Both the position numbers and the translations under genes were made by a program. The notes under the pieces were generated by a model, which saw only the letters and a program-made list of their open reading frames with translations, was not told where the DNA came from and did not search any database. A DNA stretch of 64,000 nt from Shigella phage SP21535. Below are positions 39,207-41,549 of this stretch, piece by piece. The stretch lies in sequence record PQ615101. One strand, 5' to 3'. Positions within the stretch are counted from its first letter, which is position 1; each line of letters begins with the position of its first letter.

Positions 39207-39303
39207 ATATGCTTTAAGAATTATTTGTTATTATTAACTCATATCGCACTGATTAATACCCTCTATCATCAAGGGTTCTTGTTAGAGAGCCTTTGTTAAT
39301 AAT

Positions 39304-39376
39304 TGGGAATTAGCCAAGTTGGTAAGGCATAGCACTTTGACTGCTAGATGCAAAGGTTCGAGTCCTTTATTCCCAG
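39304..39376 (+). tRNA. tRNA-Gln (anticodon TTG)
   Basis: Cloverleaf: acceptor TGGGAAT/ATTCCCA, anticodon loop CTTTGAC, T-arm GGTTCGAGTCC. Confidence 0.85.
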
Positions 39377-39377
39377 C

Positions 39378-39464
39378 GCGAGAATGGTCAAATTGGTAAA
39401 GGCACAGCACTTAAAATGCTGCGGAATGATTTCCTTGTGGGTTCGAGTCCCACTTCTCGTACCA
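39378..39464 (+). tRNA. tRNA-Leu (anticodon TAA), long variable arm, CCA encoded
   Basis: Acceptor GCGAGAA/TTCTCGT, anticodon loop CTTAAAA, T-arm GGTTCGAGTCC, 3' ACCA. Confidence 0.85.
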
Positions 39465-39470
39465 AAGTTT

Positions 39471-39542
<72 letters not shown>

Positions 39543-39554
39543 AAATTTAATTTA

Positions 39555-39628
39555 CTCCGTGTAGCTCAGTTTGGTAGAGCGTCTGCTTTGGGAGCAGAAT
39601 GTCGCAGGTTCAAATCCTGCCGCGGAGA
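39555..39628 (+). tRNA. tRNA-Pro (anticodon TGG)
   Basis: Acceptor CTCCGTG/CGCGGAG, anticodon loop TTTGGGA, T-arm GGTTCAAATCC. Confidence 0.85.
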
Positions 39629-39630
39629 CT

Positions 39631-39717
39631 GGAGGCGTGGCAGAGTGGTTTAATGCACCGGTCTTGAAAACCGGCAGTCGCTCCGGCGACTCATAGGTTC
39701 GAATCCTATCGCCTCCG
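39631..39717 (+). tRNA. tRNA-Ser (anticodon TGA), long variable arm
   Basis: Acceptor GGAGGCG/CGCCTCC, anticodon loop CTTGAAA, T-arm GGTTCGAATCC. Confidence 0.85.
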
Positions 39718-39724
39718 TAATTTC

Positions 39725-39797
39725 GCTGATTTAGCTCAGTAGGTAGAGCACCTCACTTGTAATGAGGACGTCGGCGGTTCGATTCCGTCAATCAGCA
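39725..39797 (+). tRNA. tRNA-Thr (anticodon TGT)
   Basis: Acceptor GCTGATT/AATCAGC, anticodon loop CTTGTAA, T-arm GGTTCGATTCC. Confidence 0.85.
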
Positions 39798-39803
39798 TAT
39801 CAA

Positions 39804-39875
39804 GGCCCTGTAGCTGGAAGGTTCAAGCAAGCGACTCATAATCGCCAGATGGTGGTTCAATTCCACCCAGGGCCA
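39804..39875 (+). tRNA. tRNA-Ile (anticodon CAT, presumably lysidine-modified) or tRNA-Met
   Basis: Acceptor GGCCCTG/CAGGGCC, anticodon loop CTCATAA, T-arm GGTTCAATTCC; T4-type phages carry a CAU-anticodon tRNA-Ile here. Confidence 0.75.
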
Positions 39876-39916: not shown

Positions 39917-40582
39917 ATGTTCCATTACACTTATAAAATAACAAATAAAATTAATAATAAAATTTATATTGGTGTGCATTCTACCGAAAATTTAGATGAT
40001 GGATATATGGGTTCTGGTAAATTATTAAAAAGAGCCCAAGACAAGTATGGTATAGAAAATTTCTCTAAAGAAATATTAGAGTATTTTGATGATAAAGAAT
40101 CTATGCTTGAAGCCGAGAAAAATATTGTCACAGAAGAGTTTTTAAATAGACCAGATGTGTATAATTTAAAACTTGGCGGTGAAGGTGGATGGGACCATAT
40201 AAATATTCCTGGGATGCTAAACCAGAAGAAAGATGCTAGCTTAAAAGGAGCTAAATCGTTTAAATCACGTTTTGAAAATGATATTTTACTTCAAGAAAAA
40301 TATCGTAAAATTGGTTCAAATGTATTTAAACGTTTGTGGTCAACTCCTGAATACAAGGAAAAATTTTTAAATAATAGCAGATTTTTAAATAAGCATCATA
40401 CTCCTGAAACTATTAATAAAATGAAAGAAATTCACGCTAAAAATAATCACCAGAAAGGAGAAAAGAATTCCCAATTTGGTATGATGTGGATTCATTCATT
40501 AGATGAAAAAGTTTCTAAACGTATTAAGAAAACTGACCCAATTCCAGAAGGATGGTTTAAAGGTCGAAAAATGAAATTTTAA
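39917..40582 (+). CDS. segB: GIY-YIG homing endonuclease SegB
   Basis: 221 aa; FHYTYKITNKINNKIYIGVH...YMGSG; located between tRNA subclusters. Confidence 0.85.
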   Translation: MFHYTYKITNKINNKIYIGVHSTENLDDGYMGSGKLLKRAQDKYGIENFSKEILEYFDDKESMLEAEKNIVTEEFLNRPDVYNLKLGGEGGWDHINIPGMLNQKKDASLKGAKSFKSRFENDILLQEKYRKIGSNVFKRLWSTPEYKEKFLNNSRFLNKHHTPETINKMKEIHAKNNHQKGEKNSQFGMMWIHSLDEKVSKRIKKTDPIPEGWFKGRKMKF

Positions 40583-40585
40583 TTA

Positions 40586-40662
<77 letters not shown>

Positions 40663-41000
40663 GACAAGAAACCGGGTCGCTACCGGTAAGTCGTCGGACT
40701 GATGTTCCCTGGGTAAGGAATTGCGTTAATAAATCTTTATGATTTGTTGATGCCCTCTTACATCACAGCAGAAACGGCGCACCGAATTATCGATTCGAGG
40801 AAATATCTTTGCCGTAAGCCGAGTAGCGTTTTTGACGGAACGTTCGGATATGGTCGAGATATGGCCTTTTAAAAATATTAAGTAGCGTCAACTGCTTAAT
40901 AACCGGGTTCGAATCCCGGCGTTTCGTACAAACACTTGCCTTAGCAGGTGGAACCCCGACAAGGTTGCCGCAAGGCTTTAGCCCCGACCGAAAGGTTGGG
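40663..41000 (+). ncRNA. structured stable RNA region (T4 species 1/2 RNA-like, tRNA-like T-arm)
   Basis: No ORF; GC-rich helices; CCGGGTTCGAATCCCGG T-arm-like element at ~40902-40918; precedes terminator. Confidence 0.4.
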
Positions 41001-41006
41001 GCTTTT
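40981..41006 (+). terminator. rho-independent terminator, GNRA-capped hairpin
   Basis: GCCCCGACC-GAAA-GGTTGGGGC followed by TTTTT. Confidence 0.65.
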
Positions 41007-41009
41007 TGG

Positions 41010-41017
41010 TATAAATA
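41010..41017 (+). promoter_or_regulatory. late promoter TATAAATA
   Basis: Exact motif 40 nt upstream of ATG 41057. Confidence 0.45.
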
Positions 41018-41056
41018 TAGTAGTATATTAAATCACGAATTAAAACAGGAAATAAG

Positions 41057-41515
41057 ATGAAATCATATGCTCAATTTTTAAATGAAGCATCCGCTTCAGA
41101 TGTTCGCGCTGTAGCAACTGCTGCTATTAAAGCTGGTAAATATTCTTATAAAGATGCTTCTGACGAATCTCGGTACAAGTTCTACGACGATATGAGAGCT
41201 GAAGGCTTTGTGGGTAACTATGTTACCACCGCCTGGAAAAGCCTGGTTGCTACTGGTGCGGCTTTCGAAAAACCTTCTGGTAAACCTGCTCCTAAGGCTG
41301 ACCCTAAAGCAGCACAAGAAAAAAATATTGCTAAAGGAATTATTTCTAGGTATGAAGCAATTCTTAAAGAACTTTTGGTAATTAAGACCGAAGGCCAGAA
41401 ACTTGCGCGAGCTCATAGTTTCAAAGATAACCCACATGCTCATGACCTAGAGTATGTTGAAGATCTCCAAAAAATCATCAAAGACCGCATTTGGTCTGCT
41501 AAACAAATTAAATAA
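41057..41515 (+). CDS. internal-protein-like capsid-targeted protein
   Basis: 152 aa; N-terminus MKSYAQFLNE-A resembles the IP capsid targeting sequence; late promoter upstream. Confidence 0.55.
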   Translation: MKSYAQFLNEASASDVRAVATAAIKAGKYSYKDASDESRYKFYDDMRAEGFVGNYVTTAWKSLVATGAAFEKPSGKPAPKADPKAAQEKNIAKGIISRYEAILKELLVIKTEGQKLARAHSFKDNPHAHDLEYVEDLQKIIKDRIWSAKQIK

Positions 41516-41523
41516 CATTCTTA

Positions 41524-41549
41524 GCCCCAGCCGAAAGGTTGGGGCTTTT
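41524..41549 (+). terminator. rho-independent terminator, near-identical copy of 40981 hairpin
   Basis: GCCCCAGCC-GAAA-GGTTGGGGC followed by TTTT. Confidence 0.65.

What the first reader, a model, noticed from the sequence alone, without database searches (positions are those of the whole stretch)
40663..41000. ~340-nt non-coding structured RNA segment after tRNA-Arg
No ORF is present. The region has GC-rich helical segments and a T-arm-like CCGGGTTCGAATCCCGG at about 40902-40918, and ends at a strong terminator. This fits the small stable RNAs (species 1 and 2) of T4-type phages that are processed by tRNA-maturation enzymes. The function of such RNAs is poorly understood.
Basis: partly seen in the sequence, partly recalled or inferred. 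Interest (0 to 1): 0.4.

Follow-up and report, generated by a model that had tools for sequence, protein, structure and literature searches.

The report
T4-type species 1 and 2 RNAs
This stretch holds the two small stable RNAs (rnaD and rnaC) that T4-like phages cut out of the end of their tRNA operon; they have been known since the 1970s and their job is still unknown, but comparing relatives shows that rnaC is a tRNA-like molecule held together by a conserved loop-to-loop contact.

Summary
The window is a Tequatrovirus. Bases 40663-41008 are the distal end of the T4 tRNA operon. They hold rnaD (species 2 RNA, 40664-40783; 112 of 121 aligned columns identical to T4), a 6-nt spacer, rnaC (species 1 RNA, 40790-40928; 136/139 identical to T4), a 51-nt hairpin trailer and an intrinsic terminator (40980-41008). 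So it is two known RNAs plus a trailer, not one 340-nt RNA. Rfam has no family for either RNA, and papers from 2010 to 2025 still call their function unknown.

Comparison of 34 distinct rnaC homologues from about 12 genera supports one fold: a tRNA-type 7-bp acceptor stem and T arm, a 70-72-nt hairpin H1 and a 10-bp hairpin H2. The 6-nt loops of H1 and H2 are exact complements (UUGACG/CGUCAA). They change together in Marfavirus (UUGGCG/CGCCAA) and Jiaodavirus (UUGCAG/CUGCAA). This supports a loop-loop (kissing) contact.

rnaC behaves as a tRNA-slot element inside phage tRNA arrays. rnaD is restricted to T4-type phages and has a conserved core around a swappable central hairpin.

Identity: already known. 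The function proposed here, tRNA mimicry in trans, is inference only.

The parts
40586..40662 (+). tRNA-Arg(UCU) with encoded CCA; the upstream neighbour. Its 3' end lies one base before the rnaD 5' end.
   Evidence: ARAGORN; Rfam RF00005 69.2 bits. Only 54% identical to the T4 tRNA-Arg allele.
40664..40783 (+). rnaD (species 2 RNA), 120 nt. It has a 5' hairpin (40671-40675 with 40683-40687), a basal stem (40690-40696 with 40775-40782), inner stems and a variable apical hairpin. The 3' end is ...GGCGCACC.
   Evidence: Coordinates transferred from the T4 (71053-71171) and RB33 annotations. 112 of 121 aligned columns identical to T4. Consensus fold 94.9% paired, 12 pairs with changes on both sides, 0/500 shuffles as good.
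40784..40789 (+). Spacer GAAUUA between rnaD and rnaC. It corresponds to the AAUAA/AACAA/AAUUA spacer that follows the CCA of the upstream tRNA in other genera.
   Evidence: Upstream flanks of 31 homologues.
40790..40928 (+). rnaC (species 1 RNA), 139 nt; a tRNA-like four-helix molecule.
   Evidence: 136/139 identical to T4 rnaC 70908-71046. CM R1 158 bits. MFE -50.1 kcal/mol, z -4.10. Covariation.
40791..40797 (+). rnaC acceptor-stem 5' strand (C2-G8). It pairs with 40920-40926 (C131-G137). The tandem U5.U134/U6.U133 mismatch is invariant in 32 of 34 sequences and is replaced by Watson-Crick pairs (U-A with U-A or A-U) in PM2 and JD18.
   Evidence: helix 1: pair 4/135 GC:22 AU:11 GU:1; pair 2/137 CG:33 AU:1; pair 7/132 CG:33 UA:1. 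Alignments.
40798..40867 (+). rnaC hairpin H1 (70 nt, interrupted stem). Its length stays 70-72 nt even where the sequence is rewritten.
   Evidence: H1 length 70:15, 71:15, 72:1. helices 2 and 3: 23 of 26 pairs have changes on both sides.
40832..40837 (+). H1 apical loop UUGACG, proposed to pair with the H2 loop.
   Evidence: helix 4.
40876..40901 (+). rnaC hairpin H2: 10-bp stem and 6-nt loop CGUCAA at 40886-40891.
   Evidence: helix 5: all 10 pairs have changes on both sides. Loop coordinates.
40903..40919 (+). rnaC T arm: CCGGG / UUCGAAU / CCCGG.
   Evidence: Pair 3 of the stem is UA:19 GC:12 CG:1. A weak tRNA-Sec-like Rfam hit covers it (17.3 bits, below threshold).
40920..40928 (+). rnaC acceptor 3' strand (40920-40926), U138 at the discriminator position (40927) and A139 (40928). 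ACA stands where Marfavirus, Jiaodavirus and PM2 homologues encode CCA.
40929..40979 (+). 3' trailer with predicted hairpins (40933-40950; 40952-40966; GCC-GCAA-GGC at 40967-40976). Conserved only in T4-type phages.
   Evidence: Nearly invariant, so the structure is predicted and not supported by covariation.
40980..41008 (+). Intrinsic terminator of the tRNA operon: 10-bp stem with GAAA loop, then UUUUU.
   Evidence: PMC2330249 states that the T4 tRNA-cluster transcript terminates after the species I gene.

Best explanation
The segment is the distal end of a T4-type tRNA operon and encodes the two known small stable RNAs: rnaD (species 2, 40664-40783) and rnaC (species 1, 40790-40928). A hairpin trailer and the operon terminator follow (to about 41008).

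Shown here: identity with T4 rnaD and rnaC, conserved secondary structure of both, and the architecture of rnaC. rnaC is a four-helix, tRNA-like RNA. Its 5' and 3' ends form a 7-bp acceptor stem that stacks on a 5-bp T arm. The D/anticodon region is replaced by a 70-nt hairpin (H1) and a 10-bp hairpin (H2). The two 6-nt loops are complementary and co-vary, so they most likely form a 6-bp kissing contact that closes the molecule.

Inferred biogenesis: both RNAs are transcribed with the tRNAs as one precursor (a ~1.75-kb transcript is described for T4). rnaC is released like a tRNA. RNase P recognises the acceptor/T-arm minihelix at the 5' side, and the 3' side is trimmed near the discriminator U. 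The rnaD 5' end arises from the cut that frees the tRNA-Arg 3' end, and its 3' end from the cut that frees rnaC.

Inferred function (lowest certainty, about 0.25): rnaC acts in trans as a tRNA mimic that occupies a tRNA-recognising host or phage factor. rnaD is a T4-lineage accessory RNA with a sequence-constrained core.
For: Identity:
- Nearest records are Tequatrovirus genomes: 99.8% to vB_EcoM_SYGD1 and 97.6% to RB32/RB33.
- RB33 and T4 annotate rnaD and rnaC at the aligned positions. rnaC is 136/139 identical to T4, and rnaD is identical in 112 of 121 aligned columns.
- Synteny with T4 is complete.

Structure:
- rnaC: 34 distinct homologues, 89.4% of cells paired against 38-45% when partners are slid. 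40 of 54 pairs have changes on both sides. 0/500 shuffles reach the observed values.
- Acceptor stem: A4-U135 changes to G-C; PM2 and JD18 change pairs 2/137 and 7/132 and convert the tandem U.U mismatch to Watson-Crick pairs (U-A with U-A or A-U).
- Kissing helix: 99.5% of cells paired. Position 46/99 is AU:27, GC:6, CG:1. Position 47/98 is CG:33, AU:1. The covariance model that made the alignment does not model this helix.
- H1 is rewritten in several lineages, yet it keeps its 70-72-nt length and its loop.

tRNA-slot behaviour:
- In Karamvirus and Gelderlandvirus rnaC sits between tRNA-Trp and tRNA-Gly; in Mosugukvirus PM2 it sits between tRNA-Ser and tRNA-Trp. It lies 5 nt after the upstream CCA.
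- Three lineages encode U-CCA at its 3' end.

rnaD: 94.9% paired, 12 covarying pairs, 0/500 shuffles as good.

Expression in T4:
- Northern and RNA-seq detection of RNAC and RNAD (PMC9697503).
- The transcript runs through the cluster and ends after species I (PMC2330249).

Hint of a host-dependent role: the same rnaD SNP arose in all lines of a T4-like phage evolved on ECOR34 (PMC12685909).
Against: - No transcript or end-mapping data exist for this particular phage.
- The T4 annotation starts rnaC at U1, one base upstream of where a 7-bp acceptor stem predicts the RNase P cut (C2). In this window ACA, not CCA, follows the discriminator.
- The T loop is non-canonical in Kanagawavirus Q7622 (UGCAUGC) and in Virsaitis27 (UGCAUC), so a full tRNA elbow is not universally required.
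- Covariation in the kissing helix comes from only two or three lineages. In PM2 only 4 contiguous pairs remain.
- Whether the contact forms within one molecule or between two molecules cannot be told from sequence.
- Nothing here tests function. From my own recollection of the 1970s genetics, T4 deletions removing the tRNA region grow on laboratory hosts.
- rnaD is absent from most genera that keep rnaC, so the two need not work together.
Confidence: 0.85

Rival explanations
1. rnaC and rnaD are decayed tRNA genes or processing by-products. They accumulate because they are structured, but they have no function of their own.
For: The acceptor/T-arm module and tRNA-slot position suggest descent from a tRNA. 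The rnaC covariance model gives weak hits (about 21 bits) on tRNA-Ser genes. No function has been reported in 50 years.
Against: Sequence and structure are under strong purifying selection across about 12 genera. Length is constant, the loops are invariant or co-varying, and there are many compensatory changes. rnaC is retained while neighbouring tRNAs and ORFs are shuffled. A neutral relic would not keep two 6-nt loops complementary through three sequence states.
Confidence: 0.1
2. The region acts only in cis. It is a 3'-terminal structured cap and processing scaffold that protects the upstream tRNAs from 3' exonucleases and directs orderly cleavage of the precursor. The released RNAs are incidental.
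For: In T4-type phages it lies at the 3' end of the operon, directly before the terminator. The trailer has additional predicted hairpins.
Against: In Karamvirus, Gelderlandvirus, Winklervirus and Mosugukvirus rnaC sits in the middle of tRNA arrays, not at the 3' end, and it lacks the trailer. A protective cap would not need invariant, mutually complementary loops. The RNAs accumulate as discrete species late in infection.
Confidence: 0.12
3. rnaC and/or rnaD are base-pairing regulatory sRNAs that target phage or host mRNAs through their conserved single-stranded segments.
For: The rnaD 5' ~46 nt and 3' ~20 nt are nearly invariant while its central hairpin is swapped. Some papers loosely call them small regulatory RNAs.
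Against: No target is known. [quoted passage not shown] The conserved rnaC loops are explained by pairing with each other. rnaD-rnaC duplex energy is no better than shuffles (77/300 as good). I did not run a target search against phage or host mRNAs.
Confidence: 0.08
4. The region encodes a small protein, as many GenBank records annotate.
For: Automatic annotations place 'hypothetical protein' CDSs over it in many genomes. A 42-codon TTG ORF lies at 40744-40872.
Against: That ORF spans the rnaD/rnaC boundary. Homologues carry 1-3-nt indels and wholesale hairpin replacements that destroy any frame. The substitution pattern is compensatory base pairing, not codon-like.
Confidence: 0.01

Closest known systems
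Bacteriophage T4 rnaC (species 1 RNA; NC_000866 70908-71046)
   Same: Same gene: 136/139 identical, same position after rnaD and before the operon terminator, same length.
   Different: Three substitutions, all in stems (C66U in H1; A91G and G105A in H2).
Bacteriophage T4 rnaD (species 2 RNA; NC_000866 71053-71171)
   Same: Same gene: starts one base after tRNA-Arg, 112 of 121 aligned columns identical, conserved core identical.
   Different: Small differences in the central hairpin. The base after the ...CACC 3' end is G here and A in T4, so T4 encodes CACCA and this phage CACCG.
Canonical tRNA (Rfam RF00005)
   Same: rnaC has a 7-bp acceptor stem stacked on a 5-bp T arm, mostly with a UUCGAAU loop. 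It has a discriminator-like U, CCA in some lineages, and a tRNA-type slot and spacer within tRNA arrays.
   Different: No D arm, and no anticodon arm with a 7-nt loop. It is 139 nt long. ARAGORN and the Rfam tRNA model do not call it.
tRNA-like domain of tmRNA, and tRNA-like bacterial Y RNAs such as YrlA (comparison from my own knowledge)
   Same: A partial tRNA mimic (acceptor plus T arm) fused to non-tRNA helices. tmRNA is likewise matured by RNase P.
   Different: No tag ORF and no tmRNA-type pseudoknots. No match to either family in Rfam or ARAGORN. The helix topology differs: the two extra hairpins sit inside the junction. No G3.U70 pair except in PM2.
Hairpin loop-loop kissing complexes (ColE1 RNA I/RNA II, HIV TAR-TAR*, HIV DIS; from my own knowledge)
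   Same: Two short hairpin loops that are fully complementary over 6 nt, as in the 6-nt TAR/TAR* complex.
   Different: Here both loops lie in one 139-nt molecule, so the contact may close the molecule rather than join two RNAs. There is no experimental proof.

Membership tests
T4 rnaC (species 1 RNA) | Sequence homology to the T4 rnaC gene over its full length | tested here: met
   136/139 identical; CM R1 158 bits, the same score as T4.
T4 rnaC (species 1 RNA) | Location in the tRNA gene cluster: downstream of tRNA-Arg and rnaD, upstream of the cluster terminator | tested here: met
T4 rnaC (species 1 RNA) | Accumulates as a discrete stable RNA of about 140 nt in infected cells | not testable with these tools
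   Shown for T4 by northern blot (PMC9697503). No expression data for this phage.
T4 rnaC (species 1 RNA) | Maturation by host tRNA-processing enzymes (RNase P at the 5' end) | not testable with these tools
   Only the anatomy is consistent: an acceptor/T-arm minihelix of 12 bp and a tRNA-slot position.
T4 rnaD (species 2 RNA) | Sequence homology to T4 rnaD, beginning one base after the tRNA-Arg 3' end | tested here: met
   112 of 121 aligned columns identical; the conserved 5' and 3' cores are identical.
T4 rnaD (species 2 RNA) | Discrete stable RNA of about 120 nt in infected cells | not testable with these tools
   Reported for T4.
tRNA (RF00005) | Cloverleaf with D arm, anticodon arm with a 7-nt loop, and T arm; score at or above the Rfam gathering threshold | tested here: not met
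   No RF00005 hit in 40663-41008 even at E<=10. The only clan hit is tRNA-Sec at 17.3 bits against a threshold of 47. ARAGORN finds nothing.
tmRNA | tRNA-like domain plus tag-peptide reading frame and pseudoknots | tested here: not met
   ARAGORN reports no tmRNA. The only Rfam signal is a 10-bit match of the bare T arm to permuted tmRNA.
Any curated Rfam family | Match at the gathering score | tested here: not met
   The window scan gives only the eight tRNAs. A permissive scan of 40500-41100 gives only sub-threshold chance-level hits.
Intrinsic (rho-independent) terminator | G+C-rich hairpin followed by a U-run, at the end of the transcription unit | tested here: met
   10-bp stem with 7 G-C pairs and a GAAA loop, then TTTTT at 40980-41008. 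Termination after species I is reported for T4.

The most novel reading that the evidence does not exclude
rnaC defines a structured-RNA family that has no Rfam entry and spans at least about 12 genera of T4-like phages of enterobacteria. It is a tRNA-derived four-helix RNA whose two internal hairpin loops kiss each other through 6 bp that co-vary in three sequence states. It is matured like a tRNA, in some lineages down to an encoded U-CCA end. It would act in trans as a tRNA mimic, for example as a decoy or ligand for a tRNA-recognising host defence nuclease or processing/modification enzyme. That would explain why it is kept in phage tRNA arrays. I could not check whether the loop-loop contact was already noted in the 1970s-80s structure papers, because they are not in the searchable library.
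Probability: 0.2. Interest if true: 0.75.

Novelty: already known. Interest (0 to 1): 0.35.

Why it matters
The finding itself rediscovers two RNAs that were sequenced in the 1970s and are annotated in T4, so it adds nothing new about this locus.

The value lies in the open question. These are among the oldest known phage non-coding RNAs. They are abundant late in infection, they are conserved in more than a thousand sequenced phages, and they still have no function and no Rfam family.

The comparative model built here gives a concrete handle on that question. It has a tRNA-type acceptor/T module plus a co-varying loop-loop contact. It predicts single and compensatory loop mutants with opposite outcomes. 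It suggests testing rnaC deletions on hosts that carry tRNA-targeting defence systems. It also flags hundreds of spurious 'hypothetical protein' annotations lying over these genes.

Tried and rejected
- Rfam at gathering and at permissive thresholds: no family for rnaC or rnaD.
- The tRNA-Sec-like alternative fold, with an 8-bp acceptor made by ACGGAACG (rnaC 46-53) and CGUUUCGU (131-138). It shows no covariation: all 500 shuffles do as well, and G49A with U135C gives A.C in Karamvirus. Rejected in favour of the acceptor stem formed by the 5' and 3' ends.
- rnaD-rnaC and RNA-trailer intermolecular duplexes: no better than shuffled sequence.
- Host homologues: no match to rnaD+rnaC in 5,426 complete E. 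coli genomes at blastn sensitivity.
- Wider distribution: one metagenome scan and one IMG/VR scan with loop-agnostic patterns recovered only T4-like phages. Citrobacter phage CkP1 has the tRNA array but no rnaC.
- Protein-coding reading: rejected.
- A late promoter inside segB (TATAAATA at 40198): not conserved in T4, so not used.
- Literature: the original structure and processing papers (1970s-80s) and the 2003 T4 genome review are not held in the library. Statements about them rest on my own recollection and are marked as such.
- Trailer hairpins: too invariant for covariation, so they remain predictions.

Full report
**What is there.** The window belongs to a Tequatrovirus. A 501-bp query around the finding matches 774 phage records. 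The best are vB_EcoM_SYGD1 (99.8%) and RB32/RB33 (97.6%).

ARAGORN and Rfam find eight tRNA genes on the + strand: Gln, Leu, Gly, Pro, Ser, Thr and 'Met(CAT)' at 39304-39875, and tRNA-Arg(UCU) at 40586-40662. The gene called 'Met(CAT)' is the one T4 annotates as tRNA-Ile. The GIY-YIG homing endonuclease gene segB lies between the two groups at 39917-40582. This is the order of the T4 tRNA region.

**Checking the observation.**
- After tRNA-Arg there is no credible ORF until 41057.
- The T-arm-like CCGGGTTCGAATCCCGG is at 40903-40919, one base off the stated coordinates.
- The terminator is a 10-bp stem at 40980-41003 followed by TTTTT.
- The three sub-segments fold better than dinucleotide shuffles, with z = -2.58, -4.10 and -3.39.

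The one correction is that this is not a single 340-nt RNA.

**Identity.** T4 (NC_000866) annotates rnaD, 'small, stable RNA; species 2', at 71053-71171, one base after tRNA-Arg. It annotates rnaC, 'species 1', at 70908-71046. RB33 annotates the same two ncRNAs. The three-way alignment is almost base for base from the end of tRNA-Arg through the terminator.

Transferred to the window, the coordinates are:
- rnaD: 40664-40783 (120 nt; 112 of 121 aligned columns identical to T4).
- Spacer: 40784-40789.
- rnaC: 40790-40928 (139 nt; 136/139 identical).
- Trailer: 40929-40979.
- Terminator: 40980-41008.

Published work on T4 agrees. [quoted passage not shown] RNAC and RNAD are detected by RNA-seq and northern blot and classed as late RNAs 'of yet unknown functions' (PMC9697503). 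The 2010 review says 'their biological roles are unknown' (PMC3014915).

Rfam 15 has no family for either RNA. Only sub-threshold chance-level hits appear, including a 17-bit tRNA-Sec-like hit on the rnaC T arm.

**Anatomy of rnaC.** I collected homologues by blastn walking, by pattern scans of IMG/VR and of metagenomes, and with a covariance model built here (R1).

This gave 34 distinct sequences. They come from Tequatro-, Mosig-, Gapriver-, Karam-, Kanagawa-, Winkler-, Moon-, Gelderland-, Marfa-, Jiaoda- and Mosugukvirus, plus phage Ursula.

They support one fold. On the 34-sequence alignment:
- 89.4% of cells pair, against 38-45% when partners are slid.
- 40 of 54 pairs show changes on both sides.
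- No shuffle out of 500 reaches the observed values.

The fold has these elements:
- **Acceptor stem.** The 5' end (C2-G8) pairs with the 3' end (C131-G137). In most sequences it carries an invariant tandem U.U mismatch. A4-U135 alternates with G-C. In PM2 the stem is A-U, G-C, G.U, U-A, U-A, C-G, G-C. In JD18 all seven pairs are Watson-Crick.
- **T arm.** It follows the acceptor 3' strand directly (40903-40919). Its third pair alternates U-A/G-C.
- **H1.** An interrupted hairpin of 70-72 nt (40798-40867) lies between the acceptor 5' strand and the T arm.
- **Linker.** 7-10 nt, A/U-rich.
- **H2.** A 10-bp hairpin (40876-40901). All ten of its pairs show changes on both sides.

The alternative 8-bp 'tRNA-Sec-like' acceptor suggested by the Rfam hit has no comparative support.

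**The loop-loop contact.** The 6-nt apical loop of H1 is UUGACG (40832-40837). The 6-nt loop of H2 is CGUCAA (40886-40891). They are exact complements.

- Both loops are unchanged in lineages where H1 has been rewritten into unrelated sequence: fGh-Ecl01, Kosakonia 305, PEi20, the Gelderlandvirus sequences and Moonvirus NM4.3.
- In Marfavirus the loops are UUGGCG and CGCCAA.
- In Jiaodavirus they are UUGCAG and CUGCAA.
- In PM2, 4 contiguous pairs remain (GACG/CGUC).

Counted as a pseudoknot helix, 99.5% of cells pair. Pair 46/99 occurs as A-U (27), G-C (6) and C-G (1). Pair 47/98 occurs as C-G (33) and A-U (1). The covariance model that produced the alignment cannot model this helix, so these counts are not fitted to it.

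H1 length (70-72 nt) and H2 length (25-26 nt) are held constant across the sequence types. That is what one would expect if the H1 tip has to reach the H2 loop.

I conclude that a 6-bp kissing contact is likely (about 0.8). Sequence alone cannot say whether it forms within one molecule or between two. I could not check whether the 1970s structure papers had already noted it.

**rnaC behaves like a tRNA gene in arrays.**
- In Karamvirus and Gelderlandvirus it lies between tRNA-Trp and tRNA-Gly.
- In PM2 it lies between tRNA-Ser and tRNA-Trp.
- In Kanagawavirus and Marfavirus it lies after a tRNA-Met.
- It starts 5 nt (AAUAA/AACAA/AAUUA) after the CCA of the upstream tRNA.
- In T4-type phages the same spacer follows the rnaD 3' end, ...GCACC(A/G).
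- After G137 comes U138 at the discriminator position. Then comes ACA in most lineages, or CCA in Marfavirus, Jiaodavirus and PM2.

An acceptor stem plus T stem of 12 bp is the module RNase P recognises. This is established knowledge; the AT1 model substrate is described in PMC11143913. Release of rnaC by RNase P is therefore the natural inference, but it is not tested here.

Two details do not fit neatly. The T4 annotation starts rnaC one base upstream of C2. The T loop is non-canonical in two lineages.

**rnaD.** It was found only in T4-type genomes (Tequatro-, Mosig- and Gaprivervirus).

Seventeen distinct sequences share a nearly invariant 5' part of about 46 nt, which includes a 5-bp hairpin with one covarying pair. 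They also share a nearly invariant 3' part of about 20 nt...CACAGCWGAAACGGCGCAC. The central hairpin occurs in three unrelated versions that all pair.

The consensus fold is 94.9% paired with 12 covarying pairs, and no shuffle out of 500 does as well. This pattern points to sequence-specific recognition of the core. No partner is evident:
- Complementarity to rnaC is no better than chance.
- No Rfam relative exists.
- No homologue was found in 5,426 E. coli genomes.

A recent evolution experiment found the same rnaD SNP in all lines of a T4-like phage adapted to ECOR34 (PMC12685909). That is the only hint of a host-dependent role.

**Trailer and terminator.** The 51-nt trailer is predicted to form three small hairpins before the terminator. 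It is almost invariant among T4-type phages and absent elsewhere, so its structure remains a prediction.

**How it most likely works.**
- Shown: gene identity, conserved folds, tRNA-slot organisation, the terminator.
- Inferred from T4 literature and anatomy: co-transcription with the tRNAs from the promoter upstream of tRNA-Gln (a MotA-box-like TGCTTTA plus TATTAT lies at about 39210-39236), RNase P cleavage at the rnaC 5' side, 3' trimming, and accumulation because the RNAs are compact.
- Inferred function (about 0.25): rnaC is a tRNA mimic acting in trans on a tRNA-recognising factor, with the kissing contact fixing its shape.

Rivals:
- Functionless relic (0.10). Argued against by the selection pattern.
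- Purely cis-acting 3' cap (0.12). Argued against by the mid-array position outside T4-type phages.
- Base-pairing sRNA (0.08).
- Protein-coding (0.01).

**Verdict.** The locus is ordinary for a T4-like phage and already known, so novelty is 'already known' and interest is modest. The comparative structure of rnaC goes beyond the finding. It makes an old open question, what species 1 RNA is for, directly testable with compensatory loop mutants and with host panels carrying defence systems.

Noticed in passing
window 40980-41003 and 41523-41546, ORF 41057-41515: The operon terminator hairpin (AGCCCC..CCGAAAGGTTGGGGCT) occurs twice. Between the copies lies a 152-aa ORF preceded by TATAAATA (41010-41017). 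T4 lacks it: T4 runs straight from the terminator into the sequence that follows the second copy here. It looks like a gene cassette inserted between terminator repeats. RB33 has the same ORF (RB33_134).
   Followed up: partly
window 40586-40662: The tRNA-Arg(UCU) gene is only 54% identical to the T4 tRNA-Arg, although the flanking segB end and rnaD are nearly identical to T4. RB33 shares the window's allele. This indicates replacement of one tRNA allele within otherwise conserved DNA, next to the segB homing endonuclease gene.
   Followed up: partly
window 40198-40205 (inside segB): A T4 late-promoter-like TATAAATA on the + strand lies about 390 nt upstream of tRNA-Arg. It could give late transcription of tRNA-Arg, rnaD and rnaC. 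It is absent from the same place in T4, so it may be chance.
   Followed up: partly
window ~39210-39236: A MotA-box-like TGCTTTA followed 12 nt later by TATTAT lies about 70 nt upstream of tRNA-Gln. It is the likely middle promoter of the tRNA operon.
   Followed up: no
L009/L010 (Klebsiella phages F48, Potts1) ~1369-1419: Marfaviruses have a ~50-nt GGGGUGG...CCCACCCC hairpin element between tRNA-Met and rnaC, in the place where T4-type phages have rnaD. It may be a different small RNA or a processing hairpin.
   Followed up: no
many phage GenBank records, e.g. L009 1443-1580 (vBKpnF48_274), L010 1443-1580, L034 1142-1315: Automatic annotation places 'hypothetical protein' CDSs across rnaC and rnaD in hundreds of T4-like genomes. 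Only a few records (T4, RB33, RB68, T2L) annotate the RNAs. These CDSs are probably spurious.
   Followed up: partly
rnaD homologues in L020, L022, L040 compared with window 40710-40765: The central hairpin of rnaD exists in three unrelated sequence versions between identical 5' and 3' cores, as if a module had been swapped by recombination.
   Followed up: partly
window 39804-39875: ARAGORN calls this gene tRNA-Met(CAT). The homologous T4 gene is annotated tRNA-Ile.
   Followed up: no
rnaC loops, window 40832-40837 and 40886-40891: UUG in the H1 loop and CAA in the H2 loop are kept in all but one lineage (PM2). UUG is also the anticodon of the phage tRNA-Gln(UUG), whose anticodon loop reads CUUUGAC, and CAA is the codon it reads. 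This may be coincidence.
   Followed up: no
L074 2839-2979 (Pectobacterium phage PM2): In this homologue the third acceptor pair is G.U, at the 3:70 position if C2 is counted as position 1. In tRNAs that pair is the alanine identity element. It is seen in one lineage only.
   Followed up: no
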